Assembly (NCBI GenBank): GCA_040285855.1
Contig: JAUFOQ010000005.1
Coordinates: 2,170,001-2,234,000, forward strand
DNA length: 64,000 bases
Source: Eukaryota sp. GEM-RC1
Taxonomy: Eukaryota
Direction: 5' to 3'
The notes beneath the pieces were generated by a model. The model saw only the letters and a program-made list of their open reading frames with translations. It ran no database searches and was not told the origin of the DNA. This document shows positions 5,564 to 46,600 of this stretch, one piece after another; the first letter of the stretch is position 1; each line of letters begins with the position of its first letter. Both the position numbers and the translations under genes were made by a program.

Positions 5564-6417
5564 TTAAGATTCATAGAGTTCATCTACTCCCACTATTTCA
5601 ACTCTATGATTAACTTTCAACGCATCTGCCAAAGCTCTCACACCTTCAGCTCCAATATAATTGGAAACCAGATTAACACTTGTAACTGAAGAATTAACTT
5701 TCAACGCTGCTGCCAAAGCTCTAGCACCTTCAGCTTCAATAACATTTCCACTTAGATCAATACTGGTAATTGAAGCATTAACTTTCAACGCATCTGCCAA
5801 AGCTCTGGCACTTTCAGCTTCGATAGAGTTTCTACTTAGCTTAACACTGGTAACTGTAGTATTGGTTTTCAACGCTTCAATCATAGAAACAGCGGTGTAT
5901 TCGAACACTTCTACTTCTATTTGCTTAAGACGTGGAAATAAAGAAGAAGGATTTTTTAAAAACTCTAAATCAGAGGGTTCGCTTAGATAGAGTGTCAATC
6001 CTGTAATTATACCAGAATAATTTAGAAATTTCTCAATTTTCCAGGATCCGTAAGTGTAAGTGTCCAAAAACACAGATTGTAGACCTGTTCTAAAGAAAGA
6101 AGTAAGTGAAATTAGTTCGGGAAGGTGTTTGAGATTAGTATGAAAGGTGTGTAATTGAAAAAATACTTTAACTGCCTGGGATGAAGAATCAAGGAAGTGA
6201 TTGCTTACATAGCCAACTTGTCCAAAGAATGCAGGTAATGCTGTTTTCAAAGCAGATAGTTGATGCTTAGTTCGATCATGATTATGTTCAAGAGTATCCT
6301 TGACAAGACGTCTCAGCAAGTGGAGATGGACAAGAATCAACAAAGTCTGCCACGGACACGTTTGGAGGGAGAATCTGTGGTTGAAGACAATGCCGACAGT
6401 TCGTCACAGTTAGACAT
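5564..6417 (-). pseudogene. 28-aa RI/NLRC3-type LRR family member 1 (3 repeats; 5' frameshift)
   Basis: Has the family N-terminal domain (LLILVHLHLLRR...FFGQVGYVSNHFLDSS) and three SVTSVxLxxNxIGxEGARALAxALKVN repeats. A small deletion near 6352 disconnects the MSNCDEL start at 6417. Confidence 0.75.
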
Positions 6418-6494
6418 CACAGATGAGAAGCTGGAAGGGGATGAACGAAAGGTTCAGAGCATTGATCAAGAAATGAGGACTTTGTTCTTTCAAC

Positions 6495-6975
6495 CATACC
6501 TGGGCATGACAACAAATTGATATCTGTCATGACGTCATGACACTCCATGACATGACAGCATGACAAGCAACCACTATTTCCAATATGTATTGATAGTTAT
6601 TCAACAATAGTCTACATGTATGAATATTCTTTTTATTCTTCATTTCCAAAATTTGTCAGCTTGTATACTGCTAAGAAGTTCACTGAATAATCTTTTGCAC
6701 CAGCACGAGTTTGTGGTTCATTTGTTGTGATATCATTCATCATAATTTTATATGTCATTTAAACTAAAGATTTTGCATATATACTAGGAATATCAGATAA
6801 TGTCAGAATGTAACTGAGAAAAGAGGAAGAGAGGTTATTTGGACAATGTCGGGCGACAAACGGTTCATTTGTTTCAGCTGTATTCGCAGCAATTAATTAT
6901 CTCTAAAGGATATGTCATAACACTTCAAAAAAAAAACAATGGCGTCATGACGTCATGATGTCATGTCCAGGTATG
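6495..6975. mobile_element. hAT-type MITE (481 bp)
   Basis: 17-bp TIRs CATACCTGG(G/A)CATGACA (16/17 match). Perfect 8-bp TSD CTTTCAAC at 6487-6494 and 6976-6983. Clustered subterminal CATGAC/GTCATG motifs. Confidence 0.88.
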
Positions 6976-8819
6976 CTTTCAACTGTACAACTGTCTGTCG
7001 TTTTCCTCAACTTGATATTAACACCATGAACCATTCGAAATCTCCGGAAGATAAGTGTTGGTGATGAATCTATTGATCCCATCATGAATCATTCTTGAAG
7101 ACATCCTGATGCTTGTCCTCAAAATGACCTGCTGGGTGTTCAAAATAAATGCTAGTGTTTATCATTGACTGACTCCTGTGCAATGAATTGTCCTTTTGAT
7201 GACGTATCACATCATTGAATATCTAAATTATGTACAGATTCAACATGATTGATCTTCACATCCAAATCGATTTAACAATCAGTGTTGAGTTCTTGGTTGA
7301 GAGTGACACAATATTCACAGTAAGTTTGTGGATTGAGATCACCTTCTGCAATTTCTTACAATGAACAACGAATTCTTGTTAGCAAATGATAGATTATAAT
7401 TTACAATAATTTAAATTTGTCTTGAATTGTCACACCCTTCCGATACCTCTAACATCAACTTTTCTCTATTATAACTGCTATCTGCCATTAGAACTACTTA
7501 AGTGCATCTGCTGAAACGTTGATATGAGTCTGCATGGAATTTCCTGTTGTCGAGCCTTTGGTCTTCTGATAGCTATCTAAGTACGTTCTAGCTATGCTGA
7601 TGATTCATAGAGTCAGTTTGATGTTACTATGTGTGTGTCATAAATCGTGTTTTCGCGTTTGCCTGCGTTTCAACTGGTGGATTCTACCACTTACTTACAT
7701 CCCAAAATACATAGCCATACAACACAAACGTCTTCTTCGTTGTTGTGGTAGTACTGTTGGTTACTCGTTTCCGCAAATCTTGCTAAACGGGGTCTGAAAC
7801 ATGCAGCTCAGCTCTAGACGTTACGTTGATGAAGTCCACGGAATAGGATATCATTGACATCGATGCGGACGACAAGATCAACAAGAAATAAACACTTATC
7901 GAATCAGTACGATCCATGTGAAAGACTAAGCAATTCGATGAATTGGTATTTTATTAGTTTACACAGAGACTATAGAGCGTATCATGAGTGAAAGTAGTTG
8001 AGAAGATAGAGAGATCCTATAAATTCAAGGTTCCTCTAATTTCAAGGTCCGGATAGGATTGAAATTATAGGAACCTGACTGTATTTTGATGATCGCCAAA
8101 AAGGCTCAAAAATTACTAAAAATAGAAATAAATAGAAATAAATAGAGTTTATATTTATTTGTGAGGAGCCCTGACTGTCTTCGTTTTTTGCCTGATCGCG
8201 TGCTATACCATATTATCATTATTAAGGCAAAGTTAAAGTTATTACCAAAAGAGTACAATTGGAGTTAATACTTTGACAAAGTATACTGAAATTTTTCATA
8301 GATTTCAATTACATGTACTAGTTAAAAAAGCCCTTAGCCAGTATAATTTGTAAATAGACTGTAACAACTGAAGGACAAGTCTGTAGCACAAGAATAACTA
8401 AACTTCTAGGAAACAATGATACAATGCAGTTTCTTGATTTTGAAGGCAATTATACTTGTTCTGTCGACACTGGCTTTAGAGAAGCTAAGAATTTTTTTGA
8501 TCTCAAGGTGGTCGACAACTTACGAGATTGACGACAACCTTGTTTGACCACAAGATTGTAGACGTGTCATATTTTGATGTTTGTTTTGATTAGATTGATC
8601 TTACTGTCTGTTAAGAGTTATCAGCACATAAACATAATAGCTGATTGACGTTTTTTTAAGAATCCATTCCAATGTGAGTGATTTTGTAATGATAAAAACT
8701 TTAATATATACAAAACAGAGATTTAAAGGACCCTAATACAGGCATAGTAAAGGGTATGCTTGTATAGTATTCAAGGTTGCTTGTATTGGGACCCTGACGA
8801 TATATTGTGGTATTATTTT

Positions 8820-9765
8820 CATTGTTGTCAAATGCGCACTTTTTCCAGAAATGAAATGCGTGAAAATGCGTCAAATGCGCGCATTTCTGTGCATTTTGAC
8901 GCATTTTATGTGCGCATTTTGATTTTGAACTTGAGACACCAAGTAAATAAAAATATTTCGTCATACTGATTCATGTCCTCGTAATTCTCTATATTCCATG
9001 CCCGTTTCGATATGTATCAAAATCCCACATCATTTGGCATCACGCTACAATTGTATATCAACCTCCTTCCAAAGGTTCTGTTGTATCAGAAGCTACAGTT
9101 CATTGTCATCATTGTGTCCACCAGTCCGTCACTGGAACTAATTTTTTGAAACAACACTTTGTACCGAGGACGACGTAATGTTTTCTTGTTCAAAACTGTG
9201 TTCAGAACTCGTTCAAAGTCTTTAAGCTGAGTTGAGAGCTCCAAAACGCACATCCTCTTCTCATTGACCAATCTCATTAAACAACTGTTACTGTTGATCA
9301 CATACTATATACAGAATATGTGTTTCAACTTTAAGGGCAAACAGTGGGCGTTGGTGTCTTAATAAATGGTCTTTAAACCATATTTCATTCAGTATTTTAT
9401 ACGATATTAGCTGTTTATGGTTTTGTATCGATTTACATTGTTCGTAAATATGGGTAAAACAGACTTTTGATCAAAAGTTTTGCTTGAATCACACTAACTT
9501 CACAGGTTTTAAACCAATTCACATTGTGATATCAAAAGAAAGTTCACTGATCTGTATACAATACAACTTTGCATTTGTCCAACGAAAGAGGTACTGCAAA
9601 ACACTGGTTTGAGATCAACATCACTGATATTGCATATAGAGATTTATACAGAAGCACAACAAAAAAATCTCCAAGTCAAAATGCGCAAGATCACAAAATC
9701 CCAAATAAAAGGTGTCAAAATGCGCACATTTGGCGCCTAGGCATTTCTGAAAATTGATAACACTG
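8820..9765 (+). mobile_element. Non-autonomous hAT element, CAGTG family (946 bp)
   Basis: Ends CATTGTTGTCAA / TTGATAACACTG. 8-bp TSD ATTATTTT (8812-8819) versus ATTGTTTT (9766-9773). Subterminal AAATGCG repeats. A second copy lies inverted at 13438-16222. Confidence 0.8.
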
Positions 9766-9796
9766 ATTGTTTTAGTAATATTTCAATGTTCTATCA

Positions 9797-11874
9797 ATGA
9801 CATCTTCCCAAGATTCCCTACATCATATCTTCAACACAACTACCCCAAATGAGGAGACTCTTGATATAGCTACTTCCCTCCTCTCAAATCTCAAGTTATC
9901 TATAGAATGGCTCACCAATATCAACTTGACTGTCCTTTTTTCACGTTTACCAGATAAACTAGATGTTTTGTTCTTCTCGTATCCCACCGCTTCCCATCTT
10001 ACTCGTCATTCTGTTACTGAATCTCTTATATCATCCATTCTTCATCTCCTGGAAGAACACTCTGATCTCACTGAGCCTGCTGCTTCTTTTATCCTTAGTC
10101 TGGCCTTTTCACGAGGTCATTCTCAATCTGTTCTTACCATTCTACAATCCTCTGACAACTTTTCCCTTCTTCTTTCGTCGTTATTCACACATGCTACATC
10201 CTCCCAAGCCTCTTCTCTTCTACATCTTCTCATTAAGAACTTCCCCATGTCATCTCTTAAGAATCTGCCTCTGAACTCCATCTCGCATCTTCCCAATCTT
10301 ATCTTCCGTCTTCATCCTACACTTCCATCTATTCCAAAACTTGTTCACTTTCTTCTATCATCACTTGTACAACCTAACATGTTTGACTTGTCCTTAGTCA
10401 ATGCTATTTCTTCAGGTCTTTCTTCTTCATTTTCCTCTTTCTTTCTTTCCTCTTCTGCTGAATGTCGTTTGTTATCACATTCAATGTTTTGTTTTCTATT
10501 GTTACTATTTAAGGCTCATGAGGTTTCAATTTCTATATCAAAAGATATTCTCTCGATTGTAAACGTGTCGCTCTCAATCGGTGATGATTGCGACCGGCAT
10601 CAGTCGATGATGGTGATGGGTTTATTATCTGAGCTCAACTCTAATGATGAAGGATATTCGAACTTTGATTTCGATTTTTATCTAAATGAGGATGTTATGA
10701 ATGTCTTTTTAAATATATTTAAATATTTTGATTTTAATCCCAAGTTTTTGCAACGTGAAAATGAAGATGATGTTACGCAATCACCTTATGATTCAATCAA
10801 GGTCGAAATTGATTCTGACTCTGATGAAGAAGAACCAATCAAATTTGATTCTGATTACAATGACTTGCCTCAAGAAATTGGTGAACGAACTGCTACTGTA
10901 AGAGAGTGTTTAAAGCTTTTACAAAGTTCCAACTTTAATGAATGGTCTTTAGGTTTTAAAGCAATTGGACCAAAAATAGAACAATTTGCCGACTTTTTCA
11001 AAAACAACCACTATTTCTGTGAAAATGTTGCTAAATCGTTGTTATTTCTTGAGAATTCCTTCTCTGAAGATCATTTTCACCATCAAGTTTCAGACTGTAT
11101 CAAGAACCTCCTGGTAGCTGCTCCTTCTTCTGTCCACTACTTAGTTGATCATGGTTTACAGACTGATGTGACGACAGCTAAGCAGTTGTCTGTGATTGCT
11201 GGTATGACGTCAGCAGTGGATCAGCTCTCAAATCAGGAAAGTGTTCGGCCAACAGTGTCCGAAAGCAGCTCATCTTATCTTAAGTCAATCAATTCTGATT
11301 GCGGAATTCCGGCGAAATCACAAGATATTATTAGGCAACGATTGTTGAAAAAAACGAGAGTCTTATCTAAAGGGTATCAAAAATCTACCGCTTTTCATTC
11401 AAAATTTTATCAAAATTTCAATGTTTTCTTTTGGCCCGTTTTCAATCATTTTTGTACACAAATGAATCAAATGTCGCAGTCACTTTCCTCTTTTGATTCA
11501 GCTTCGTCAGTTCATTTTTCTTGCATTTTGTCCTCTCTTTTGGTTATTTTGGGATTGTTTGTTCTTCTCTATCTATTACTACTGAAACTCTACCTATTTT
11601 TAAAAATGTGCTGGAATTCGCCATGCATTTTGTTGAATTTCAAAATTGTTCCAAATTTTTACGACAAGGATTGTTTTGTTGTATTTCGCTGCTTTTGGGA
11701 AGCGTTTCAAAAGATGAACATTTACTTCAAATATTTGAAAGTATTGAAAATTTGGTACAATGTGGAGAGTTTTTGAAAAGTGGACTATCTGATGGAAATT
11801 CAAATATTGTCAAATATTCAAGTAATTCCTTAACAATTATTTCAAAAGTGATTAAAAAACATCTTGGAGATTAG
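9797..11874 (+). CDS. TEL2: Telomere length regulation protein TEL2/TELO2 homologue (TTT co-chaperone); one probable sequencing frameshift near 11520-11560
   Basis: Helical-repeat protein with an acidic DSDSDEEE patch followed by TVRECLKLL..NEW, AKSLLFLEN.F, LLVAAP, RQRLLKKTRVLSK and F...FFWP, in the motif order I recognise from Tel2. The ORF at 11521-11874 supplies a plausible C-terminus. Confidence 0.72.
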
Positions 11875-16249: not shown

Positions 16250-17527
16250 ATGATCACACCTCGCTATCAACATTTGTTGCAAAGGAGTCGTTCTTCCCCT
16301 TCCAGTATTTCCTCTGGGATGGCTCACTCTGACGAACTGCATGTATTGTCTTCATTCACGGACCCTCCCTCTAAACGTGTCCATGTTCAGCAGACTTTGT
16401 TGATTCTGGTCCATCTACACTTACTGAGACGTTTTCTCAAGGATAATCTTAAAAACAATCACGATCGAACTGATCCTCAACTCACTGCTTTGAAAACAGT
16501 TTTGTCTGCATTTTTTGGACAAGTTGGCTATGTGAGCAATCACTTCCTTGATTCTTCATTACAAGCAGTTAAAGTCTATTTTCAATTACACACCTTTCAT
16601 GCTGATCTTAAACACCTTCCTGAACTAATTTCACTTGCTTCTTTCTTTGGAGCAGATCTACAATCTGTTTTCTTGCACGCTGACGAAGTTTCAATAATTG
16701 AAATACTTCTGAAGTATTCTGGTATACTTACAGGATTGAGAATCAAACTAAGGGAACCCTATGATTTAGAGTTTCTAAACAACTCCTCTTCTTTATTTCC
16801 ACGTCTTAAGCAGCTAGAAGTAGAAGTGTTCCAGCGCACCTCTGTTTCTATGTTATTGATTGAAGCGTTGAAAACCAATACTACAGTTACAAGTGTTAAT
16901 CTGAAGTCCAACTCTATTGGAGCTGAAGGTGCCACAGCTTTGGCAGAAGCGTTGAAGGTTAATACTTCAGTTACAACTGTTTATCTATGTGTAAACTTTA
17001 TTGAAGCTGAAGGTGCCAGAGCTTTAGCAGAGGCATTGAAAGTTAATGCTTCAGTCACCAGTATTAATCTAAGTGGAAACTCTGTTGGGGCTGAAGGTGC
17101 CAGAGCTTTAGCAGAGGCGTTAAAAGTTAGTGATTCGATTTCAAATCTCGACCTAAGTATTAACTCTGTTGGAGATGAAGGTGCCAGAGCTTTGGCAGAT
17201 GCATTGAAAGTTAATACTTCAGTTACAAGTGTTAATCTGATGTTCAACTCTATTGGAGATGAAGGTGCTAGAGCTTTGGCAGAGGCATTGAAAGTAAATA
17301 CTTCAGTTGCAAGTGTGAATCTGAGGTTCAACTCTATTGGAGATGAAGGTGCCAGAGCTTTGGCAGAGGCGTTGAAAGTTAGTGATTCGATTACAAATCT
17401 CGACCTAAATATGACCTCTGTTGGAGATGAAGGTGCCAGAGCTTTGGAAGATGCGTTAAAAGCTAACCATAGAGTTACAATTATGGGAATAACTAGTCTG
17501 ATTATCGATAGTGACATTGTACTTTGA
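16250..17527 (+). CDS. 28-aa LRR family member 2 (7 repeats)
   Basis: MITPRYQ start matches the paralog starts. Conserved N-terminal domain followed by 7 repeats. The 15998 start in the ORF track lies in transposon sequence. Confidence 0.85.
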   Translation: MITPRYQHLLQRSRSSPSSISSGMAHSDELHVLSSFTDPPSKRVHVQQTLLILVHLHLLRRFLKDNLKNNHDRTDPQLTALKTVLSAFFGQVGYVSNHFLDSSLQAVKVYFQLHTFHADLKHLPELISLASFFGADLQSVFLHADEVSIIEILLKYSGILTGLRIKLREPYDLEFLNNSSSLFPRLKQLEVEVFQRTSVSMLLIEALKTNTTVTSVNLKSNSIGAEGATALAEALKVNTSVTTVYLCVNFIEAEGARALAEALKVNASVTSINLSGNSVGAEGARALAEALKVSDSISNLDLSINSVGDEGARALADALKVNTSVTSVNLMFNSIGDEGARALAEALKVNTSVASVNLRFNSIGDEGARALAEALKVSDSITNLDLNMTSVGDEGARALEDALKANHRVTIMGITSLIIDSDIVL

Positions 17528-20155: not shown

Positions 20156-21523
20156 ATGGTCACACCTTGTCCTGAATCTTTGAAAAGGAGTCGTTCATCC
20201 CCTTCCAGTATCTCCTCTGCGATGTCAAACTGTGGCGAACTGTCTGTATTGTCTTCATCCACAGTTTCTCCCTCTAAACGTGTCCATGTTCAGCAGACTC
20301 TATTGATTCTTATCCACCTTCATTTGCTGAGACGTCTACTAAAGCTTACTCTTGAAAATATTCATAATCGAACTAATCTTGAACTCACTGCTTTGAAAAC
20401 AGCATTACCTACATTCTTTGGACAAGTTGGTTATGTAAGTAATCACTTCCTTGATTCTTCATTTCAAGCAGTTAAAGTCTATTTTCAATTACACACCTTT
20501 CATGCTGATCTTAAACACCTACCTGAACTAGTTTCACTTGCTTCTTTCTTTGGAGGAGATCTACAATCTGTTTTCCTGGACACTTACGAAATCTTAGAAG
20601 TTGAGAAGTGTCTTAATTATTCTGATATAATTACAGGATTGAGAATCAAACTAGATGAACTCGCTGATTTAGAGTTTCTAATCAATTCTTCTTCTCTATT
20701 TACACGTCTTAAGCAACTAGCAGTATCAGTGTTCCAAAACCATTCTGTTTCTATGTTATTGATTGAAGCTTTGAAAACCAATACTACAGTTACAAGTGTT
20801 GATCTAGGTAGCAACTCTATTGAAGATGAAGATGCCAGAGCTTTGGCAGAGGTGTTGAAAATTAATACTTCAGTTACAGGCATTGATCTTCGTAACAACT
20901 CTATTGGAGATGAAGGTGCCAGAGCTTTGGCAGAGGCGTTAAAAGTTAATGTTTCAGTTACAAGTGTTAATCTGTGGGATAACTCTATTGGATATGAAGG
21001 TGCCAGAGCTTTGGCAGAGGCGTTAAAAGTTAATGCTTCAGTTACAAGTGTTGTACTGCGGGACAACTTCATTGGAGATGAAGGTGCTGAAGCTTTGGCA
21101 GAGGCGTTGAAAGTTAATTCTTTTGTTCTAAGTGTTAATCTGGAGGACAACTCTATCGGAGCTGAAGGTGCCAGAGCTTTGGCAGAGGCGTTGAAAGTTA
21201 ATTCTTCTGTTACAAGTGTTAATCTGTGTCTCAACTGTATTGGAGATGAAGGTGCTGAAGCTTTGGCAGAGGCGTTGAAAGTTAATTCTTCTGTTACAAG
21301 TGTTAATCTTCAGGATAACTCTATTGGAAATGAAGGTGTTAGAGCTTTGGTAGATGCATTAAAAGTCAATGCCTCAGTTACGAGTGTTAATCTGAGTTTC
21401 AACTCTATTGGAAATGAAGGTGTTAGAGCTTTGGCAGTGGCTATAAAAGTTAATCATAGAGTTGAAATAGAGGGAGTAGAACAACTCAATAGGTTAATTA
21501 GTTCTAAAATTAGTACAAAATAG
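20156..21523 (+). CDS. 28-aa LRR family member 3 (8 repeats)
   Basis: Intact 455-aa ORF: family N-terminal domain plus 84-bp repeats. Confidence 0.88.
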   Translation: MVTPCPESLKRSRSSPSSISSAMSNCGELSVLSSSTVSPSKRVHVQQTLLILIHLHLLRRLLKLTLENIHNRTNLELTALKTALPTFFGQVGYVSNHFLDSSFQAVKVYFQLHTFHADLKHLPELVSLASFFGGDLQSVFLDTYEILEVEKCLNYSDIITGLRIKLDELADLEFLINSSSLFTRLKQLAVSVFQNHSVSMLLIEALKTNTTVTSVDLGSNSIEDEDARALAEVLKINTSVTGIDLRNNSIGDEGARALAEALKVNVSVTSVNLWDNSIGYEGARALAEALKVNASVTSVVLRDNFIGDEGAEALAEALKVNSFVLSVNLEDNSIGAEGARALAEALKVNSSVTSVNLCLNCIGDEGAEALAEALKVNSSVTSVNLQDNSIGNEGVRALVDALKVNASVTSVNLSFNSIGNEGVRALAVAIKVNHRVEIEGVEQLNRLISSKISTK

Positions 21524-22468
21524 ATTTTCATTTCAAGTTAATATATATCTGTTGAAGTGAAGTGTGTTAAGGTCATCAAGAGCTGATGCTTTTGAAAATT
21601 TGAATTGTTATATGATGACCTTCGTGACGTTCAATACATCAGTTGAATCCAACATCCAATCAAAAGTGATGAATTCCCAGTTCATGGTGATATTCTAAAC
21701 AACAAATAACTAAAGGGCACAATTTCAATAAATATTTTTTTGATAAACAGACTCAATTTCCATGCTTGGTATATATAAGACTTAAAACATTTCAGTTTCA
21801 CACTGAAGAAAACTCATAAATTGTCCATCAAGTCAACATGTATTATTCCCAATTTGTTCTTAATTAATGATGATTTAGCTATCGATTTAGACGTTCAGTC
21901 TCTGTATATCTTCTGAAGCTGAAACCTTGGCCATTCCAGTTCTAAATGAACTCAAATCATTGGGGTAAATTAGGATAAAACCAACACGTCATTATGACAG
22001 AGTATACAATGGGATTCACAAAAGTAGGCCAAAATTCAAATTGTTTGAGAAATTATCCACGTTTGGTGTGAAAGCTAACGTTGCAAAACGTAATCTTTTA
22101 TGAAGTCGTTTGGATTTAATTTTAGTATTAATCATTTGTGTTTACAATTTCATAGTTTTGTAGGAATTTTACCTTAATGGGTACCGAATATAGTTGTTTA
22201 TTTGTTTATATATTGCTTTGAAGATGTTGAAATTCTGCCCTTTAATGGATTTGTTGTTTAGGATATCACCATGAACTGTGAATTCATCACTTTTGATTGG
22301 ATGTTGGATTCAACTGATGTATTGAACGTCACCAAGGTCATCAAATAACAATTCAAATTTTCAAAACCATCAGAAACACTTCTCTTGACTACCTTAACAC
22401 ACTTCATTTCAACAGATATACACCAACTGAAATGAAAATCTATTTTATACTAATTTTAGAACTAATTA
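21494..22468. repeat. ~230-bp inverted repeat formed by shared 3' flanks of convergent LRR genes 3 and 4
   Basis: 21494-21728 is the near reverse complement of ~22228-22468, e.g. GACGTTCAATACATCAGTTGAATCCAACATCCAATCAAAAGTGATGAATTC. Confidence 0.85.
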
Positions 22469-24049
22469 GGACCTATTGAGTTGTTCTACTCCCACTATTT
22501 TAAGTTTAGGATTAAATTTTAACGCATCTGCCAAAGCTCTGACACCTTCATCTTCAAGAGAGTTGTCCCGCAGATTAATACTTGAAACTGTAGTGTTAAC
22601 TTTTAACGCCTCTGCTAAAGCTCTGGCACCGTCATCTCCAATAGAGTTATCCTCCAGATCAATACTTGTAACTGAAGCATTCACTTTCAACGCCTCTGCT
22701 AAAGCTCTGGCACCTTCATCACCAATAGAGTTATACTCCAGATCAATACTTGTAACTGAAGCATTCACTTTCAACGCCTCTGCTAAAGCTCTGGCACCTT
22801 CATCACCAATAGAGTTATACTCCAGATCAATACTTGTAACTGAAGCATTCACTTTCAACGCCTCTGCCAAAGCTCTGGCACCTTCAACCCCAATGGAGTT
22901 GGACTTCAGATTAACACTTGTAACAGAAGCATTAACTTTCAACGCCTCTGCCAAAGCTCGGGCACCTTCAGCTCCAATAGAGTTGTAACTCAGATTAACA
23001 CTTGTAACAGAAACATTAACTTTCAACGCCTCTGCCAAAGCTCGGGCACCTTCAGCTCCAATAGAGTTGTAACTCAGATTAACACTTGTAACAGAAACAT
23101 TAACTTTCAACGCCTCTGCCAAAACTCTGGCACCTTCATTTCTGATAGAGTTGTCCCTCAGATCAACACTGGTAACTGTAGTATTGGTTTTCAACGCATC
23201 TGCCAAAACTCTGCCACCTTCATCTCTGATAGAGTTGTCCCTCAGATTAACACTTGTTACAGAAGCATTAACTTTCAACGCATCTGCCAAAGCTTCGGCG
23301 CCTTCATCTCCAATAGAGTTGAAACTCAAATCAACACTTGTAACTGAAGCATTAACTTTCAACGCATCTGCCAAAGCTCGGGCACCTTCAGCTCCAATAT
23401 AGTTGCATCCCAGATTAACACTTGTAACTGAAGTATTGGTATTCAACGCTTCAATCAATAACATAGAAACTGAGCTGCGTCGTCTCGCAACTTCTACTTC
23501 TAGCTGCTTAAGACGCGGAAATAAAGCAGAAGAATTGTTTAGAAACTCTAACTCAGAGGGTTCCATTAGTACAATTCTCAATCCTGCAATTATACCAGAA
23601 TAATTCAGAAATTTCTCAATTTCTAAAATTCCGTAAACGTCCAAGAAAACAGATTGTAGATCCACTCCAAAGAAAGAAGCAAGTAAAATCAGTTTGGGGA
23701 AGTCTTCATCATCAGCACGAAAGGTGTGTAATTGAAAATAGACTTTGACTGCTTGTAACGAAGAATCAAGGAAGTGATGACTTACATAACCTACTTGTCC
23801 AAAGAATGTAGGTAAAACTGTTTTCAAACCAGTGAGTTGAGCATTAGTTCGATCATCAATATTTTCGAGAGAGTGTTTGAGAAGACGTCTCAGCAAGTGA
23901 AGATGGATGAGAACCAACAAGGTCTGGTGAACATGGACACGTTTAAAGGGATGATGTGCGGATGAAGACAATACCGACAGTTCGCCACAGTTAGACATCA
24001 CAGAGGAACGGCTCCTCTTCAACAAAGGTTCAGGATGAGGTGTGATCAT
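22466..24049 (-). CDS. 28-aa LRR family member 4 (11 repeats)
   Basis: Intact 527-aa ORF containing adjacent identical repeats (NLSYN x2, DLEYN x2). Confidence 0.88.
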   Translation of the reverse strand: MITPHPEPLLKRSRSSVMSNCGELSVLSSSAHHPFKRVHVHQTLLVLIHLHLLRRLLKHSLENIDDRTNAQLTGLKTVLPTFFGQVGYVSHHFLDSSLQAVKVYFQLHTFRADDEDFPKLILLASFFGVDLQSVFLDVYGILEIEKFLNYSGIIAGLRIVLMEPSELEFLNNSSALFPRLKQLEVEVARRRSSVSMLLIEALNTNTSVTSVNLGCNYIGAEGARALADALKVNASVTSVDLSFNSIGDEGAEALADALKVNASVTSVNLRDNSIRDEGGRVLADALKTNTTVTSVDLRDNSIRNEGARVLAEALKVNVSVTSVNLSYNSIGAEGARALAEALKVNVSVTSVNLSYNSIGAEGARALAEALKVNASVTSVNLKSNSIGVEGARALAEALKVNASVTSIDLEYNSIGDEGARALAEALKVNASVTSIDLEYNSIGDEGARALAEALKVNASVTSIDLEDNSIGDDGARALAEALKVNTTVSSINLRDNSLEDEGVRALADALKFNPKLKIVGVEQLNRS

Positions 24050-29965: not shown

Positions 29966-31092
29966 TCATCTACTATCATATATGCCTTGATGTGAATACT
30001 TTACATCTACTTTGGTATTAACTTTCAATGCATCTACCAAAGCTTCGGCACCTTCATATCTAATAGAGTTATACTCCAGATCAACACTGGTAATTGCAGA
30101 ATTAACTTTCAACGCCTCTGCCAAAGCTTCGGCACCTTCATCTCCAATAGAGTTTAAACTCAAATCAACACTTGTAACTGAAGCATTAACTTTCAACGCA
30201 TCTGCCAAAGCTCTAGCACCTTCATTTCCGATAGAGTTGAATTTAAGATCAACACTGGTAACTGAAGCATTCACTTTCAACGCCTCTGCAAAAGCTCTAG
30301 CACCTTCAATTCCGATAGAGTTGAGGTTAAGATCAACACTGGTAACTGAAGCATTCACTTTCAACGCCTCTGCCAAAGCTCTGGCACCTTCATATCCAAT
30401 AGAGTTATCCCACAGATTAACACTTGTAATTGAAGTACTAACTTTCAACGCTTCAATCAATAACATAGAAACAGAGGTGCATTCGAACACTTCTACTTCT
30501 AGCTGCTTAAGACGTGGAAACAAAGAAGAAGAATTGTTTAGAAACTCTAAATCAGAGGGTTCCATTAGTTTGATTCTCAATCCTGTAATTACACCAGAAT
30601 AATTAAGACACTTCTCAATTTCTAAGCTTTCGTAAGTGTGCAGGAAAACAGATCCCAGATCTCCTCCAAAGAAAGAAGCAAGAAAAATGAGTTCGGGAAG
30701 GTGTTTAAGATCAGCATGAAAGGTGTGTAATTGAAAAACACTTTAACTGCTTGAAATGAAGAATCAAGGAAGTGACTACTTACATAACCAACTTGTCCAA
30801 AGAATGTAGGTAATGCTGTTTTCAAAGCAGTGAGTTCAAGATTAGTTCGATTATGATTATTTCTTCTTCTAAGATAGGGCCTCTCTGCGAGAGTACGCTC
30901 GAAAGCAAAGAGACGTCTCAGCAAATGAAGGTGGATAAGAATCAATAAAGTCTGCTGAACATGGACACGTTTAGAGGGGAGTATGTGTGGTTAAAGACAA
31001 TACAGACAGTTTATCACAGTTTGACATCGCAGAGGAGATACTGGAAGGGGATGAACGGCTCTTTTCAAAGATTCAGGACCAGGTGTGACCAT
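29966..31092 (-). pseudogene. 28-aa LRR family member 5 (5 repeats; frameshifts)
   Basis: MVTPGPESLKR start at 31092. Pieces lie in three ORFs (30991-31245, 30622-30945, 29966-30580). Confidence 0.75.
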
Positions 31093-32503: not shown

Positions 32504-32507
32504 CTGG

Positions 32508-34966: not shown

Positions 34967-34977
34967 CTTGGAGGAAG

Positions 34978-35308: not shown

Positions 35309-35495
35309 TGTGTCGTTTGTCATATATGATTTATAAAGACATTTGATTGTAATTAAATGAATAAAATTAGGAATTACTTATCGTTTTAAAATTCTGTTAG
35401 AAATCGTCGTCTGACTCAGATCAAGTTGTATCTTGATGGTAGTTCCAATTTCAGTCGTTACTATAATATAATAGAACATCCCCTGGAGTAGCAGA

Positions 35496-38400
35496 ATGAA
35501 TCTCCCATTTAAGACCATTTGTTCCTCAGATGAACTGACTGATTACCCTCTTCTAACATTACACTGCCAACAGTAATTATTGGTGTTGATTAATTGTCAC
35601 TTGTTGAGTCATCACTTGAAGTCTTCTCTAGTAGTCTTCTCTTGTAGTCAAAAAATCATCAAAACTATCGTCAACATTCTCTCTGTCGTTTGGGAAACAA
35701 ACTTGTTGGATTTATTAAAAAGTTTGGCTTTGTAAGTCAACTATTGTTTGATTCTTCATTGACAGCAGTGCAACTGTTTCTTGGAACAACTACTATTCCC
35801 GTTTTCCCAAAAGACATTGTTCTACTTTCTGCAATGACTTCATTCTTTAAAGCAAAGGTTTATTCTGTTTACCTGATTGTAAATGACTTTCTTGTAGATA
35901 AAGATATTATTGAGTTTACTACTAATATAACTCATTTAACATCAGTAGTTCTTCTTTTGTACATTACTTACTTAACCATTCGTCTTCTCTTTTCCTTCCA
36001 CGTCTGCGAGTTCTTGACATTCCCAGGAAGTCATCTTTTCAGGGAGATACTTTTACTGCACTTTGTAAGTCTTTAATGGGTAATAGAACAATTTTAGAGT
36101 TAAATCTTGGTCTGCACTCACTTACTTCTACTGAAGCTGCCTCGCTGGCAGAGGTGTTTTATTCTAACAACACCCTGAGAACAATTTCATTTAGCTCTGA
36201 CTACTCAATTAATAATAAAGTATCTTTGATTCTATTTACCGCAATTTCAAATAATTCAAATATTTCAAAAATTCATTTGAATAATCTTCGAATCCAGTGT
36301 TCAAGCGATCTTATTCCACTTTTCAAAAGTTTAAGTCTTAGAAGTATTACTCTTCCTGGTGGTTGTCTTGATTCTGCTTTATTCAATGGACTTGAGAACA
36401 ACTCATCTATTAGAGAACTTTCTGTTAAGTTCGCTTACTTTAAGGGTGAAGACCTTGGGAAAGTGTTAAAATTCAACACTGCTTTAAGAAAACTTGAATT
36501 AATATTCTGTAATGTTGAACTCTCAACAATTTTTAAATCTCTTATATCTAATACTTCACTACTAGAGTTGTCAATTGTTTTACCTGATGTCAGATCAATG
36601 ACCAGACAGTTAAGTTGTTATTAGAAATGGTCCAACACAATATTTCCTTGTGCTTAGTCTCCAAGATTTACGGGTTGAACTAAATCAGTTTAAACACATT
36701 CTGAAATCTCTCGAATTGAATTCTGTACTGAAGAAAGTCTGTTTTCACTCCTTAAATTTAAAATTTCTACTCTCCTTGTTTGAACCAATGTTTAGTGAAA
36801 AGGTACGATCTCGGATTGATCTGACTCCTAATTTAATTGATATTCACAGGGGCGTGTTTTATTTCTCACCAAGTCCACCAAATTATTCAGTAACTCACAT
36901 ATACATTTGTTCTCGAATAACTGCTACCGAACATTCGTTATTACAGTCGATTTTACAGTGTTTTACCATCACAGAACTTTTTTTTAAAAGGATGTAGTTT
37001 TACTCACGAATCAATCCCCGTTTTATGTCATTTAATAAGGAATAATAACTGCTTGACTTCTGTTGACTTCAGTGATTGTAGTCTAGATGATGACGTGATC
37101 TTATGTATCCTCAATGCATGTCAGTCCAATTGTTATTTGAAAAGGATCAATCTAAGCAATACCAACATTGGTCTCAAAAGTCTTTTACATATCTTTAATT
37201 TGATTCCTACTCACAAATTAACCCTTAATATTCATGTTTCTCCGTATACGATTGAAACTGATAAAGGTTTGTTCTGTTTTTCTCCTGAAAGTTCTTTCAA
37301 TGTTCGTTCACGATCACTATTGAGGAAATCTAATCTAAAACTTCTTTTGAAGTGTAGTTCTATCGAAGAGCTGGCAATTAAGAGTTGTATCTTTTTGATA
37401 GAACAATCCCTGTTATTTGTGATTTAATTAGGGTCAATAAGTCATTGACTTCTGTCAGCTTCAGTGACTGTGGATTAAATCATCTAGATTTCTGTCGCTT
37501 TAGTTATTTTACCGATGTTGTTTTCTCAGACTTACTCAAAGCCCTACATTCTCTTTCTTTTCTAAACAACAATAATTTCAACAATTTTCACATCGGATTT
37601 ATGAGTCTTTTAGCTCTTTTTAAGCTATTTTCCACTAGAACACTCATTCCAACAATTCAAGTTTCTCCTCATTTTATTGATATTGAAAATAGTGTTTTAC
37701 GATTTCTACCAGAAAGAGCTACGGAAATCCAATCTTCAGAAGTTTTAGCTTTACAGTCTTTGCTGACGTGTTTCAGTATCAAAGATCTTGCTATTAGAGG
37801 GTGTTCATTTATTTACGAAGACATGGTTGGATTGTATGATTCAGTCAGCATCAATCAGGAATTGACTTCTGTTGACTTCAGTGATTGATTTAGTTTGATT
37901 GTTCAAAACATAATGGTCCTTTTAGAAACAGTTGTACTCCCACATTGGATGACACTTTTTCAAACTTAATCAAATCGTTGTGTAACTCTTCTTTGAACGC
38001 GGTTAGCTTTCGAAATTGTTCCATTGGAATCAACACTCTTTTGTCTGTTTATGAAACAAAAGTGATGACGTCATCAGTCAGCAAACCCACAACTATTGAT
38101 GTTTTCCCTCATTTTGTTGATTTTTCACTTGCACTTATTCGTTATCAGAATGAGATTGAAAATCAGGAAATAATTTCACTTTTAAATTCGTTAAGGTCAA
38201 ACCTTCCTCTTAAACGTGTTGATTGCCTTGGATTGAAAAGTTCAAGACTAGCAGGACTAATCACCTTATTTGAAATTCTTTCTATCAACAATTCAGTGAT
38301 CGATCTTGATATTTCTCCTTCTTTTGTTGGTGTTGACAATGGCTTGTTTTGTTATTCACCAGAGAGTTTTACTCAATTAACAACTGACGATGTTGTATCT

Positions 38401-38577
38401 CTGCGGTGTTTTTTGACGTCCTTTAAAATCCAAGAGCTTATTTTAAAAAACTGCGGGTTTACGGGCGAAGCAATCAAAGTTTTGAATGACTTTATCAAGC
38501 TCGATAGTCCATTGACTTCTCTTGACCTCAATGAATGTGATCTATCTGAGGATGTTTTTAGAGCACTTGGTAAGTAA
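35496..38577 (+). pseudogene. Large divergent LRR gene, multiply disrupted
   Basis: Consecutive ORFs with LTSVDFSDC, LRKLELIFC and SP..ID...G.F.FSP repeats. The N-terminal region (FGFVSQLLFDSSLTAV) resembles the 28-aa LRR family N-domain. Most breaks are shared with the inverted copy. Confidence 0.7.
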
Positions 38578-39034
38578 GTTATAGATTGATTAATTGAATT
38601 CTTTCAATCATTATTTCTGATTTTATAATGATTAGTTTTAAGTTCCAACTTTCTTTTTATTGTGATCTAATACCAGAAATACATCAAGTGTAAGGACAGT
38701 TTCTGATAGTGTTGCTAATTAGATATCTACACAAAAGTTATGTATAGTGATATGTTGCCCTATTAACAATCATTGCATATATTCCTATTCAAACTGTTGT
38801 TTTTATTACATTCCTTCCTCTTCAAACACATTAGACTCCTACTTAGCCTTACAGAATACTTATTTAAACAGATGCTATCAAGTTTATCCATTTGAAGTCC
38901 ACTTGAAAAGGAACAACATTTGTCTTTACTGGAATTGTGGTTTAAAACAACAACAAGAGACATCATGAGAGACGTCAACACATGCAACACCACCTTGACT
39001 TAACCCAAAGAACTTTATCTTCCCATTTAAATTT

Positions 39035-41285: not shown

Positions 41286-41315
41286 TTTAAATTTTGGATT
41301 CCCACGATATCCAAC

Positions 41316-43541
41316 ATGCACCTGTTTCTACTCTTTATAGGCTTGATATGCTCTGTTTCATCCAACGTTGCTGATATTGAGTCTGAAACACCGTCTATCC
41401 CTCATGTTACGATTACATCGGATCCCACCGATATCGTATCTCAACTCCTTCTTAATAAGCGAAGTCAAGTTCTCACGGACAAGCTCATTGTATTCCACGA
41501 TCACAATTATCCTTGTCATTCTGCTTTCCTCTCCTCCTTCAGTTCAGTTCTGAGAGAGAAACTCTTGGAAGCCGATTCTGAAGTAAACTTCCCTGAACGA
41601 GACTCTATCATTCCCAATGCCGCTCTTCTCTTCCAAATCCTCGATTACTGCTATGGAGAACCCTTCGAGCTCACGCTTAATAACATGGGCATCGTGCTTA
41701 CCTTGTGTTCCTCCCTGCAGCTCCCCTCCTTAGCAAATCCCATCCATAAGATTATTTCTGAAGGATTTTCTAAGCCAGTTAGCCTTCAGTTGAAACCCGC
41801 AGAAGTTGTCCAACAACTCTACTCAAGTGTACAACGTGACGTGGTGATGAATTACAAGGAAAAGTCTTTCGCTATAAGCTCTCTGACGTTGATTTCAGTT
41901 TCAGAATATTTTAAAAATCTGTTACCTTTGAATTTCTCTCATTCTGAAGAAATGATTTTTGCATATGATCAAGAATTTCCCGATGTTTCAGCTCCAAATT
42001 TTGAAATCTTTGTCAATTATTTCCACGGGAAGTCGTTTGTTCTTGATGTTGATAACGTTATTGATTTTTATCAATTGACAGTCTTTTTTCAAGTAGAAAA
42101 AGTTAAACAAGCTTGTAATTCATTTGTTTCTACGCTTTCTTCTGCTGAAGATATTCTCTTTTGCTCAAAACTATTTCGGAACGGAACATTTTAAATTTTT
42201 TAGAAGAAAATTTTGAAACTTTTGTCCGACTTAAAAACAGTTCCAACCATGATTCTGTTTTTCCTTTACCTCTTCCTTTTATTTCACTTTTGATTGAAGA
42301 AGTTCAAACTTCTTGGTTGTTGAAATGTTTAACTTTGTCTGTCAATTCCGATGTTTTCAAAAATGATTACTCTACGTTAACTCAAATATTTGAAAAATGA
42401 TTGTCACAGATCAAAATATTCATGATACTTACATTTGTCTACAACCTTTATTTAATCAACAGTATCTACATGAATTTCTTTTAAGCTGGACAATGAAAAA
42501 AGCTTTTCCAGGGATTACTGATGTTACTACAATTCCTGATGAATGGTTTTTAGGTGGGTTATCTCAATGGTGTTTTTACGAGTGGGAGAAGAAAATTTTA
42601 AATATTGACTTCTTTGTTCAGAATTTCTCACTTGTCATTGATGAAAAGATTTGATGGCTATTGAAAATTATCCTTTTCTTACACCTGAAATTCTCAAAAA
42701 TTTAAAATCCATTCTACCTCCGTCGTATGACTTATTTCTAGTTAAATGTTTGGTTAAATCATGGAAGAACACAAAACTGTGGACTGTTGAAGATTTTGAG
42801 GACGTGTTTTTTAATTATGATTTTCAGTCTGGGGGAGATGGTGTTGAAATTTTAAATATTCTTTCAAACCTTTTGACTGACTCACGACTTACCAATCGAC
42901 TTACTGTCAATTTATTGAACCATTCTTTGGGTGCTCTTAATTATCACCACAAAGAATTAAAAGCAATGAAGCAACAAAACGTCATTTTAACTAACGAAGT
43001 CAAGTTATTAAAAGAATCTATTCTACCTTGGCTTAAAAGACTGCAAGAAAGAGAGGAAGAACGTCTACAGTTTGAAGCTAGTATTGGTACTTTTAATCCT
43101 GATAATTGTTGCTCGTGTTTAACGTTGTTTGAAAACAATCATGTTGTTAAAACAGAACGTTATAATAATGGTCACAACAGTTTTGTAGAAGTTAATCTTC
43201 CCGACAATCATTCAGTTAAATTTACTAGATTGGATGACATTGATGACGGTCATACTGATTCAATTGGTTGGAAAGATAGCAGCGGTCTTTCAAACAATGT
43301 TATGGCTTTCCCTGGACTTTTTACTAGAGGTGATGGTAGTAGAGGATCTTTCACACCTCCAAGGCCAAAGTTTCCTCCAATTACTAAAGGAGAATCAGTT
43401 GTGGTAAGTTTTGCTTATGGTAAGGCACACTTTAAACCGTCTACTTGTACAACTACTTTTAGTGTCGAAATACCTACTAATTTAATTTTTGGAATGTCCA
43501 TTCCTTGGGAAAATCATGAATGGAAAGTAGAACGTGTTTGA
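41316..43541 (+). CDS. Signal-peptide-like + tandem BTB/POZ-like protein, paralog B (frameshifts at homopolymers)
   Basis: Highly similar to paralog A up to NYHHKELK, then carries a distinct but homologous C-terminal domain. Confidence 0.72.
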
Positions 43542-43755: not shown

Positions 43756-43842
43756 AGTGTGGTTACGCTAGTATTTTTGAAAAAACTATTATTTTTAAAT
43801 AATTTAATTTAAATTTTTGAAAAAAACTAGCGTAACCACACT
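43756..43842. repeat. Perfect 17-bp inverted repeat around an AT-rich spacer (possible micro-MITE)
   Basis: AGTGTGGTTACGCTAGT (43756-43772) and ACTAGCGTAACCACACT (43826-43842). Confidence 0.75.
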
Positions 43843-45678
43843 GGTGAAATGATGTTGTTCAAATCTTACTACCATCAATCTGTCAGGAAATTGTATCAGT
43901 AATGAAGGTGCGTTAGAATTGATGGAATTTTTATAATTTGAATGTTCAATTGCAACGGTTAATCTTCAAAGTAATCATTTTGATTCTGGAAACAATGGAA
44001 TTTATTAGAAAATTCTCATTGAATAGGATATTTGTTTAATACAATATGTTCTTAGATTGGCTTTTTCAATCATCATTTTCGATCATCGAATATACAACCT
44101 TATACTTGTGGATTTGATTCGATTAATTAATGATACAGTAAAACTCTATACCACTAAATTTGTTCCAAAACTAGCCAATGTTGGATTTATTTGACTCTAT
44201 TCCAAAGTTGGTCAATCAAAATTTCTTTGATGGGTTATCTTCATTGGTTTCAACAACATGCGATAACCATATTATACTTTGAGCATTACAACACACGGAA
44301 AATTAGTCAAGTTTTCACTGGTGAAACTAGGTTCTAGCATTACAGTATTCTTGAAGTACAGTTTTTGTATTTTAATAAAAAATTATTTAAATAGGTTACT
44401 TTTTATCCAAACAAAGTGTACTTAAGTGTAAATGAAATCACAAAACTTCTTTAATACAATATGTTCTTAGATTGGTTTTTTTAACTTATAAGTGAGAATT
44501 TTTCAAGAAAGTTTTTGAAAAGATCAGAGATCAATCAGAACATCACCATAATTTAACTTTAAAAGAAGAGAACTGATAATTAATATAATTTATTCAAAGA
44601 TTGAAAAGAATCAGAATAAAACAAAACTAAATAATGTACTTACTTAAACCAAGGAATGACATTCCTGTCCTTAGGGAAGTACCCATCGTCAGACAAGAAA
44701 ACTTCATCGTCCTTCAAAGGTCTAAGGGCATAGAGACCAACCAGCTTTTCCCCGTTCACAAACAAATCAAAATATATCAAAATTGGTACCAGTCAAAAAT
44801 TCTAAAAATATTAATAATTCTAAAAGTGTGAATAATTCCAGTAAATCGTCGTTCAATGATCAATTGTCGTACATGTGGTTATGCCATCACCTTTTTCAAG
44901 GAAAACGTCACCACCTTTTTTCAAGGTGCTAGCATAAACACACTCACTGAATCAAGCAAAAATGTTCCTAGAGTGTCTTGAAAATATACTTTGTCAAAGT
45001 ATTAACTCCAATTGTACTCTTTTGGTAATATGTTTAACCTTTAAATAACTTTAACTTTGCCTTTTTAAAGACGGTACGGTATAGCACGCGACCAGGTAAA
45101 AAACGAAGACAGTAACTTAACACAACCGTATTATCTAATCCTTTCCTGATTTTGATTTTGAATATTTTCAAACATAGATTCCCCATTATAATCCATAAAC
45201 GGACGGTTCAAGACAAATTTTAATTATTGTAAAATAAAATCTATCATTTGCTAACAAGAACCCAGACACGTTGTTCATTTTAAGAAATTGCATATGGTGA
45301 TCTCACTCCACAAACTTACTGTGAATATTGTGTCACTCTCAACCAAGAACTCAACACTGACTGTTAAATCGATTTGGATGTGAAGGTCACGTTGAATCGG
45401 TACATTATTGAGATATTCAATGATGTGACACGTCATCAAAAAGCACAATTCGTTACGATAAAGTCGGTCAATGATATACACTAGCATTTATTAAATGCAA
45501 CAACATGTCATTTTGAGGACAAGCATCAGAATGTCTGCAGGAATGATTCATGATGAAAGCAATAGATTCACCACCAATACTGATCTTCCGGAGATTTCGA
45601 ATGGTTCATGGTGTTAATATCAAGTTGAGGATAAAAGACAGTTGGACGTTTGAAAAGAAGACATTTCTTGATTCATCA

Positions 45679-46600
45679 ATGACTACACCACGTCCTAAAC
45701 ATTTGTTGAAAAGGAGTCGCTCATCCCTTCCAAGCTTCTCCTCCGTGATGTCTAACTGTGACGAACTGTCTGTATTGCCTTCAACCACAGATTCTCCCTC
45801 TAAACGTGTCCATGTTCAGCAGACTTTGTTGATTCTGATCCATCTCCACTTGCTTAGACGTTTTCTCAAGGATACTCTTGAAAACAATCACGATCGAACT
45901 AAGCATCAACTATCTGCTTTGAAAAGAACATTATCTGCATTCTTTGGACAAGTTGGCTATGTAAGTAATCACTTCCTTGATTCTTCATTCCAAGCAGTTA
46001 AAGTGTTTTTTCAATTACACACCTTTCATGCTGATCTTGAACACCTTCATAAACTAATTCCACTTGCTTCTTTCTTTGGAGCAGATCTACAATCTGTTTT
46101 CTTGCACCCTGCTGGAAATTTAGAAATTGAGAAGTTTCTTAATTATTCTGGTATAATTACAGGATTGAGAATCGAACTAAGGGAACCCTCTGATTTAGAG
46201 TTTCTAAACAATTCTTCTTCTTTATTTCCACGTCTTAAGCAACTAGAATTAAAAGTAACGAGACGAAACGCCTCTGTTTCTATGTTATTGATTGAAGCGT
46301 TGAAAACCAATACTACGGTTACAAGTGTTAATCTAGGTAGCAACTCTATTGGAGATGTAGGTGCCAGAGCTTTGGCAGAGGCGTTAATAGTTAATTCTTG
46401 TGTAACAAGTGTTGGTCTTCAATCTAACTCTATTGGAGATGAAGGTGCCAGAGCTTTGGCAGAGGCGTTAATAGTTAATTCTTGTGTAACAAGTGTTGGT
46501 CTTCAATCTAACTCTATTGGAGATGAAGGTGTCAGAGCTTTGGCAGATGCGTTGAAAGTTAATGCTTCAGTTACAAGTGTTGATTTGAGTTTAAACTCTA
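45679..46600 (+). pseudogene. 28-aa LRR family member 6, truncated in repeat 4 by a MULE end
   Basis: MTTPRPKH start. The frame ...VDLSLNS runs directly into GGGAAATCGTC at 46601. Confidence 0.85.

What the first reader, a model, noticed from the sequence alone, without database searches (positions are those of the whole stretch)
5564..46600. Modular LRR repertoire: constant scaffold, variable di-residue, repeats shuffled among paralogs
Seen: six paralogs share a ~200-aa N-domain followed by 3, 7, 8, 11, 5 and >=3 84-bp repeats. Variation concentrates in xLxxN. The same cassettes recur in different genes and positions: LWDN..GYEG (genes 3,5), DLEYN (4,5), NLKSN (2,4), LRDN, LSFN and LEDN (3,4), DLSLN (5,6), LSGN (1,2), LGSN (3,6). 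Exact adjacent duplicates occur in genes 4 and 6. Established: these positions line the concave ligand-binding face of RI-type LRRs. Inference: a recombination-diversified recognition repertoire, loosely analogous to VLR cassettes or TALE di-residues. No NACHT/NB-ARC domain is present.
Basis: partly seen in the sequence, partly recalled or inferred. Interest (0 to 1): 0.7.

Follow-up and report, generated by a model that had tools for sequence, protein, structure and literature searches.

The report
Shuffling F-box-like LRR repertoire in protist
A free-living anaerobic protist carries a large family of repeat proteins whose near-identical 28-residue units vary fastest at two predicted binding positions and are partly shared between genes, likely through ordinary recombination, and these proteins likely act as changeable adaptors that would mark foreign proteins for destruction.

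Summary
Six paralogs carry 3, 7, 8, 11, 5 and 3 (plus a partial) 84-bp LRR units, but three genes are broken. Codons 13-14 change about four times faster than the synonymous clock (omega about 4; scaffold 0.3-0.45; at most 1.66 in 100 neutral simulations with conversion). Cross-gene sharing is real at DNA level (58-67-nt identical tracts; one chimeric paralog), though several listed cassettes are same-position, convergent or core-only. Named paralogs are from the metamonad Eukaryota sp. GEM-RC1 (Skoliomonas); the N-domain search gave 150 clusters. The N-domain is predicted as three helices plus four degenerate LRR turns, and it links weakly, through a neighbouring gene, to F-box domains. The Skp1 docking test was unavailable. 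Best reading: cytosolic F-box-like LRR adaptors, diversified by duplication, unequal crossing-over and gene conversion under diversifying selection. This pattern is known from fungal HIC NLRs and brown-algal ROCOs, and the repeat varies alike in a Legionellaceae bin. No VLR-like donor array or TALE-like feature was found. New variant of a known kind.

The parts
5564..6460 (-). g1: paralog with 3 LRR units (5621-5872); 4-bp deletion near 6350 and no recognisable start
16250..17527 (+). g2: intact paralog, 7 units (16868-17455)
   Evidence: P0003
20156..21523 (+). g3: intact paralog, 8 units (20771-21442); used for the structure model
20276..20491 (+). Three-helix region of g3 (residues 41-112), candidate degenerate F-box with an inserted hairpin; followed by four predicted degenerate LRR turns up to 20770
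   Evidence: F-box identity is inferred
22466..24049 (-). g4: intact paralog, 11 units (22523-23446), two exact adjacent duplicates; tail to tail with g3 across a 942-bp spacer with about 89% inverted arms
29966..31092 (-). g5: paralog with three single-base frameshifts and a 30-bp insert in the N-domain; 5 units (30029-30448); mosaic of g3-like and g4/g6-like units
45679..46599 (+). g6: paralog with 3 units and a partial fourth (46300-46599), cut by a MULE transposon copy
20958..21024 (+). 67-nt tract of g3 r3 identical to g5 r1 (30363-30429, minus strand)
46534..46599 (+). 66-nt tract of g6 r3-r4 identical to g5 r3-r4 (30149-30214, minus strand); 58 nt of it also match g4 r1-r2 (23322-23379)
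43866..43983 (+). Single degenerate LRR remnant, the only unit-like DNA outside the six genes (E 0.003)
1014..3584 (+). Neighbouring LRR gene with a clearer F-box-like segment; the bridge between the family's helices and F-box domains
35577..38577 (+). Frameshifted long-LRR member of the same N-domain superfamily; mirror copy at 59454-62362 on the minus strand

Best explanation
These genes are a young branch of a large gene family of a Skoliomonas protist; their near-identical LRR units vary fastest at two positions, are partly shared between genes, likely by unequal crossing-over and gene conversion, and likely form changeable binding surfaces on adaptors that would bring target proteins, probably foreign ones, to a Skp1-cullin ubiquitin ligase. 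Shown: repeat anatomy, unit duplications, cross-gene identical tracts, a chimeric paralog, an elevated nonsynonymous rate at codons 13-14, broken copies, family size and the absence of an ATPase domain. Predicted: the fold (three helices, four degenerate turns, then a regular RI-type solenoid, with residues 13-14 just after the concave strand) and a cytosolic location. Inferred: that the helices are a degenerate F-box (about 55%), that they bind Skp1, that the targets come from viruses, symbionts or transposons, and that exchange is ordinary homologous recombination, not a dedicated machinery. The evolutionary part alone I put at about 0.85.
For: Selection: omega 4.3-4.7 at codons 13-14 against 0.32-0.45 for the scaffold. 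A site model with no prior choice of sites gives 7% of sites at omega 4.1, LRT 31, p 2e-7; dropping any one gene gives 3.8-4.4. 100 of 100 neutral simulations, 75 with conversion, stay at or below 1.66. Ten close unit pairs show 7 nonsynonymous and 0 synonymous changes at these codons (p 0.036 against the synonymous rate). Exchange: g4 r2 and g5 r4 differ at 3 of 84 nt while their N-domains differ at 15.5%; 58-67-nt identical tracts. P0002 switches from g3-like to g4-like inside the N-domain (0 of 401 permutations) and shares 7 units with g4. 84 different residue pairs occur among 185 units of 30 genes. Family: 150 clusters at 50% identity; 10 of 10 checked are GEM-RC1. F-box link: helices with an SLLxLI start and a VGYVSxxF turn; profile match to the F-box-like segment of ORF 1014 and its paralog, score 22.8, 0 of 200 shuffles; that segment's best Atlas hits are F-box clusters at 0.90. 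FBXL2 and FBXL17 chains align over nearly their whole length, from model residue 44-46 (Z 23.4 and 23.7, rmsd 5.4 and 5.8, 350 of 389 and 358 of 375 residues). The best PDB sequence match is a GALA LRR. No membrane segment in 28 paralogs.
Against: No direct F-box match for the family: F-box is not among the top 25 of 94 Pfam families for 104 members and is not found in 39 proteins at E<=10. Direct profile comparison with 23 F-box sequences was not significant (13 of 100 and 32 of 300 shuffles as good). The hallmark proline is present in only about 13 of 104 members. Non-F-box LRR proteins also align from residue 42-56 and score higher (NOD2 Z 32.8). With the synonymous rate freed at codons 13-14 alone, omega falls to about 2 and is not significant (p 0.14); with a local rate over codons 12-15 it is about 3 (p 7e-4), so a local rate effect may contribute. 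The 13 near-identical cross-gene unit pairs come from only three gene pairs, ten from one. A family-wide mosaic test of the N-domain did not clearly beat its null (25.1 against 14-29 in 12 permutations). g3 and g5 are close paralogs (9.5%), so their 67-nt tract may be inherited. Three of six copies are broken. No ligand is known.
Confidence: 0.5

Rival explanations
1. Same evolution, different output: stand-alone LRR sensors or inhibitors that bind and block targets, as ribonuclease inhibitor or metaeffectors do, or signal through a separate partner. The helices are only a cap or a partner-binding module.
For: No direct F-box hit. The best fold matches are NOD2, NLRP3 and RI. The Legionellaceae genes with the same unit start almost directly with LRRs.
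Against: The bridge to an F-box-like neighbour. The GYVSxxF turn is the most conserved part of the family. No NACHT fusion of this N-domain was found among longer proteins, though that search is weak.
Confidence: 0.3
2. Non-adaptive expansion: copies spread passively in a transposon-rich region, the scaffold is homogenised by conversion, and codons 13-14 are merely unconstrained or locally hypermutable.
For: Three of six copies are broken; MULE and other mobile-element remains surround them. The synonymous rate at codons 13-14 is estimated at about twice the average.
Against: Neutral simulations never exceed omega 1.66. The scaffold is under purifying selection (0.3-0.45). Other neutral-looking sites stay near 1. 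The fast sites are those predicted to face the ligand.
Confidence: 0.13
3. Programmed assembly, as in lamprey VLR: a dedicated mechanism copies cassettes into expressed genes within cell lineages.
For: Some shared pieces are short cores with identical codons (7 pairs share both codons against 1.6 expected, p 0.003). Broken genes keep intact arrays and could serve as donors.
Against: No donor array in the window. Every array sits in a full gene copy. Units differ by many point changes. Intact arrays in broken genes are not unexpected at this sample size.
Confidence: 0.04
4. Assembly artefact: exact duplicates and shared tracts come from misjoined or mispolished long reads.
For: The far end of the window holds 99.5% identical inverted blocks and many single-base frameshifts.
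Against: P0002, a separate paralog with a different 5' half, has the same duplicate pattern with small differences. Shared tracts are flanked by gene-specific sequence. It could explain some g5 frameshifts, not the pattern.
Confidence: 0.03

Closest known systems
Fungal NLRs with high internal conservation (Podospora HNWD and NB-ARC-TPR; PMC13449251, passages and section 12 read)
   Same: Near-identical repeats, a few hypervariable positions under diversifying selection, gain and loss of repeats, repeats shared between divergent paralogs, association with transposons, pseudogenes with intact repeats.
   Different: Those have a NACHT or NB-ARC ATPase and WD40, ANK or TPR repeats. Here there is no ATPase, the repeats are RI-type LRRs and the N-terminus is F-box-like.
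Ectocarpus ROCO LRR genes (PMC3341825, abstract and outline seen)
   Same: LRR units shuffled among paralogs, diversifying selection, fast birth and death, proposed defence role.
   Different: There each repeat is an exon and the protein has a ROCO GTPase. Here the arrays are uninterrupted open frames with no GTPase.
Expanded F-box families of Caenorhabditis (PMC8665587, passages read; Thomas 2006 seen only as a reference entry)
   Same: Hundreds of lineage-specific clustered copies, a conserved N-terminal adaptor, positive selection in the substrate-binding part, proposed arms race with pathogens.
   Different: Their F-box is recognisable. Near-identical shuffled LRR units are not described in the passages read.
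Ralstonia GALA and Legionella LegL proteins (PMC2244805, passages read)
   Same: GALA joins an F-box to LRRs with a GAxALA helix; about 40% identity to the g4 array.
   Different: They are bacterial effectors. GALA repeats are classed as CC-LRR, and selection was reported on the convex side; here it is next to the concave strand.
Lamprey VLR and TAL effectors (recalled, no call except VLR fold rows)
   Same: Constant frame with variable binding residues.
   Different: No germline gene with donor cassettes, no signal or anchor, no helical DNA-binding repeat.

Membership tests
RI-like LRR proteins | 28-residue LxxLxLxxNxL units forming an alpha/beta solenoid | tested here: met
   Pfam LRR_6; model pLDDT 92; RI and NOD2 fold matches
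F-box/LRR (FBXL) proteins | N-terminal F-box motif | tested here: inconclusive
   No direct match; indirect bridge through ORF 1014; whole-chain alignment of FBXL2 and FBXL17
F-box/LRR (FBXL) proteins | C-terminal LRR substrate-binding domain | tested here: met
F-box/LRR (FBXL) proteins | Binding to Skp1 | not tested
HIC NLRs | NACHT or NB-ARC ATPase | tested here: not met
   None in 21 window ORFs, in the top 25 families of 104 members or in 31 longer hits
HIC NLRs | Repeats about 80% identical with hypervariable selected sites | tested here: met
   Mean 16.7 of 84 nt different; omega about 4
HIC NLRs | Repeat exchange between paralogs | tested here: met
   few gene pairs carry the signal
HIC NLRs | Repeat-number polymorphism between strains | not testable with these tools
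   No reads or second strain listed
VLR | Incomplete germline gene with flanking LRR donor cassettes | tested here: not met
   One degenerate remnant outside the six genes in 64 kb; the rest of the genome was not available
VLR | Signal peptide and membrane anchor | tested here: not met
   Hydropathy of 28 paralogs, best 19-residue mean at most 1.63; a simple scan only
VLR | Somatic assembly by a cytidine deaminase | not testable with these tools
TAL effectors | 33-35-residue helical DNA-binding repeats | tested here: not met
   Units are 28-residue LRRs; the TALE definition is recalled
GALA proteins | Bacterial type III effector with CC-type GALA LRRs | tested here: not met
   Eukaryotic paralog family; 28-residue RI-type units; about 40% identity

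The most novel reading that the evidence does not exclude
A single-celled metamonad runs an anticipatory immune repertoire through ubiquitin ligases: many F-box-like adaptors whose LRR units act as an exchangeable library of two-residue specificities, reshuffled fast enough to differ between cells of one clone, and sending viral or symbiont proteins to the proteasome with no NLR ATPase involved.
Probability: 0.15. Interest if true: 0.8.

Novelty: new variant of a known kind. Interest (0 to 1): 0.47.

Why it matters
Protist defence against viruses and intracellular bacteria is poorly known. This family joins two known strategies, repeat shuffling as in fungal NLRs and F-box adaptor expansion as in nematodes, in a cultured free-living metamonad. 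If Skp1 binding holds, it gives a direct handle on ubiquitin-based immunity in a deep-branching lineage. It is also a natural library of one LRR scaffold with at least 84 residue pairs. The evolutionary pattern itself is not new, and function is untested, which caps the score.

Tried and rejected
No whole genome was held, so the genome-wide unit tree could not be built. DNA tests rest on 37 units of six genes, protein tests on 30 genes. No sequencing run was listed, which says nothing on expression. The metagenome scan with the N-domain found no relative. The complex prediction with a stand-in Skp1 was not available; nothing was folded. Fold searches of the helical region alone gave no clear match and no F-box row (Foldseek none at E<=0.001; best Z 7.3). 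PDB sequence search of the helices gave only chance hits. The Atlas search of the family's N-domain gave only leads under 0.9. The first 24 simulations were too diverged (mean 38-51 differences) and were dropped for the calibrated set. The scaffold-only tree gave omega 22, which I reject as inflated by recombination. The unit tree has low support at deep nodes. F-box searches in five bacterial bins found nothing. A remnant of an NLR helical domain as source of the N-domain was considered; the N-domain profile did not match the NACHT proteins found. A BC-box reading (recalled motif) was considered and not tested.
Full report
1. Observation. The window is gene-poor, about 36% GC and rich in mobile elements. 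Of 37 units, positions 13 and 14 have 3.2 and 3.1 bits of entropy; L1 and L12 are invariant and N15 nearly so. Three genes are broken: g1 has a 4-bp deletion and no recognisable start, g5 has three one-base frameshifts and a 30-bp insert, and g6 ends at a MULE copy at 46600. Some g5 changes lie in homopolymers and may be sequencing errors.

2. Are cassettes shared by descent? After dropping 7 within-gene near copies, 30 units were compared with 1000 codon-column shuffles. There were 3 cross-gene pairs at <=6 differences (0.18 expected), 2 identical 18-nt cores (0.11) and 7 pairs sharing both variable codons (1.6; 2000 shuffles). The best cases are g4 r2 / g5 r4 (3 of 84 nt; N-domains 15.5% apart), a 66-nt tract in g5 and g6 (14.8% apart), and a 67-nt tract in g3 r3 and g5 r1. 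The last pair are close paralogs (9.5%, with an 80-nt identical run in the N-domain), so that tract may be inherited. g5 still reads as a mosaic, since its unit 4 matches g4 and g6.

3. More paralogs. A search with the N-domain gave 28 close proteins. 25 of 28 are named Eukaryota sp. GEM-RC1, the other 3 are the window's own, and 25 of 28 lie on a contig of one length. Across 30 genes, 185 units carry 84 different residue pairs; 181 cross-gene pairs share a pair against 117 +/- 11 in 2000 shuffles. Thirteen cross-gene pairs differ by at most 2 residues (null mean 1.2, maximum 5 in 30 shuffles), but they come from three gene pairs, ten from P0002 and g4. P0002 is g3-like for 16 of its first 17 informative sites and mostly g4-like after that (0 of 401 permutations; this triplet was chosen after seeing it), and it shares g4's last seven units. 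P0014 and P0023 (69% N-domain identity) share late units and their tail. A family-wide mosaic scan over 10,956 triplets was not clearly above its null. The deeper search gave 150 clusters at 50% identity. Ten of ten checked are GEM-RC1, on several contigs; at least one hit is spurious (P0165). 45 of 147 new hits have two or more regular units by a simple pattern; several of the longest have degenerate LRRs.

4. Selection. My own codon model on the unit tree gave omega 4.3-4.7 at codons 13-14, about 1 at codons 11, 16 and 19, and 0.32-0.45 elsewhere. An M1a/M2a-type test chose no sites in advance and found 7% of sites at omega 4.1 (p 2e-7); leaving out any gene gave 3.8-4.4. In 100 simulations with neutral codons 13-14, matched divergence and four settings of duplication and conversion, omega never exceeded 1.66. 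Ten close pairs, which I picked from the neighbour table, show 7 nonsynonymous and no synonymous changes there. Against this: when the synonymous rate is freed at those two codons, it is estimated at 2.1 times the average, and omega of about 2 is not significant (p 0.14); sharing a local rate over codons 12-15 gives about 3 (p 7e-4). Diversifying selection is likely, and a local rate effect is not excluded.

5. Structure. The model of g3 (104 sequences, pLDDT 92) shows a disordered 40-residue tail, three helices (47-68, 75-92, 96-112), four degenerate strand-helix turns and the regular solenoid. The strand covers unit positions 9-11, so residues 13-14 sit right after it. That these positions contact ligands in RI-type LRRs is recalled knowledge. 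Best fold matches are NOD2, NLRPs and RI; the best sequence match is a GALA LRR. No membrane segment was seen in 28 paralogs.

6. The F-box question. The most conserved motifs are QQSLLxLI and VGYVSxxF, which recall the first and last F-box helices around an inserted hairpin. Direct tests failed: Pfam and profile comparison with 23 F-box sequences from giant-virus bins. An indirect route held. ORF 1014-3584 and its paralog have a segment whose best Atlas hits are F-box clusters (0.90, near the tool's chance level of 4-10 in 100), and whose only three PDB hits are weak ones to the LRRs of SKP2 and FBXL2. That segment matches the family's helices at score 22.8, above 200 of 200 shuffles and only in windows that hold the conserved turn; it matches the F-box profile at 12.5, with 1 of 100 shuffles as high. 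FBXL2 and FBXL17 align along almost their whole chains, but other LRR proteins also reach the helices. I rate the F-box reading at about 55%.

7. Is the pattern special? Two genes in a Legionellaceae bin (54-56% identity) have the same unit, the same peak at positions 13-14, exact block duplicates and omega about 2. So a constant scaffold with a variable pair is a general trait of this repeat type. No donor array lies in the window; 64 kb hold one degenerate remnant.

8. Literature. PMC13449251 (passages, section 12) describes near-identical repeats with hypervariable sites and inter-gene exchange in fungal NLRs, and finds such repeats in 5.6% of repeat proteins without an ATPase. PMC3341825 (abstract, outline) reports LRR shuffling in brown algae. 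PMC8665587 (passages) covers F-box expansions with selection in the binding part. PMC2244805 (passages) covers GALA. PMC11316075 describes Skoliomonas genomes; its main text has no occurrence of 'LRR' or 'leucine' (passages and section 6); its supplements were not read and may list the family. Eight searches listed no paper on this family; the library is incomplete. Three look-ups in the scan's notes showed nothing on it.

9. Verdict. A real, selected, recombining LRR repertoire in a metamonad, working like fungal HIC NLR sensors but without an ATPase and probably wired to ubiquitin ligases. It is not a VLR or a TALE. New variant of a known kind; interest 0.47.

Noticed in passing
window 1014-3584 (+): 856-aa LRR protein with an F-box-like segment preceded by a Cys-rich tract; one paralog found (P0177).
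   Followed up: partly
window 35431-41115 and 56654-62508: Inverted duplication at about 99.5% identity enclosing a run of MULE transposase copies (38811-58955), many truncated or frameshifted; a recent rearrangement or an assembly problem.
   Followed up: partly
window 27524-29762 (+), 41316-43541 (+), 34073-34968 (-): Two broken BTB-domain genes with a shared unassigned C-terminal domain, and an inverted fragment. BTB proteins can be Cullin-3 adaptors (recalled), so a second adaptor family may be expanded here.
   Followed up: no
window 21524-22465: g3 and g4 lie tail to tail; the 942-bp spacer has inverted arms of 210-270 bp at about 89% identity.
   Followed up: partly
window 6977-7426 and 45207-45655: g1 and g6 share about 450 bp of upstream DNA at 87% identity, so duplication carried flanks.
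   Followed up: partly
window 9797-11776 (+): TEL2-like gene (Pfam Telomere_reg-2), a housekeeping gene inside the repeat-rich region.
   Followed up: no
window 67-837 (-) and 31573-32382 (+): Two related gag-like ORFs; the first has a zinc knuckle by Pfam.
   Followed up: no
window 14083-15795 (-): ORF that looks like a hAT transposase by eye (no Pfam match); a partial copy lies near 8982-9539.
   Followed up: no
window 18226-19766 (-) and 32505-33720 (+): Fragments that resemble the C-terminus of a non-LTR retroelement (recalled motif, no Pfam match).
   Followed up: no
window 62397-64000 (+): NT-C2 domain protein running off the window end.
   Followed up: no
L001:2465-3556 and L002:1298-2410: Legionellaceae bin genes with the same 28-residue unit, variable pair and block duplicates, beside resolvase genes on small contigs.
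   Followed up: partly
L010-L014, L016, L017; L137-L159: Giant-virus records encode Skp1 homologs, and three of four searched also hold 2-16 F-box matches.
   Followed up: no
P0005, P0010, P0012, P0013: Four paralogs share an acidic C-terminal tail; g5 has its beginning.
   Followed up: no
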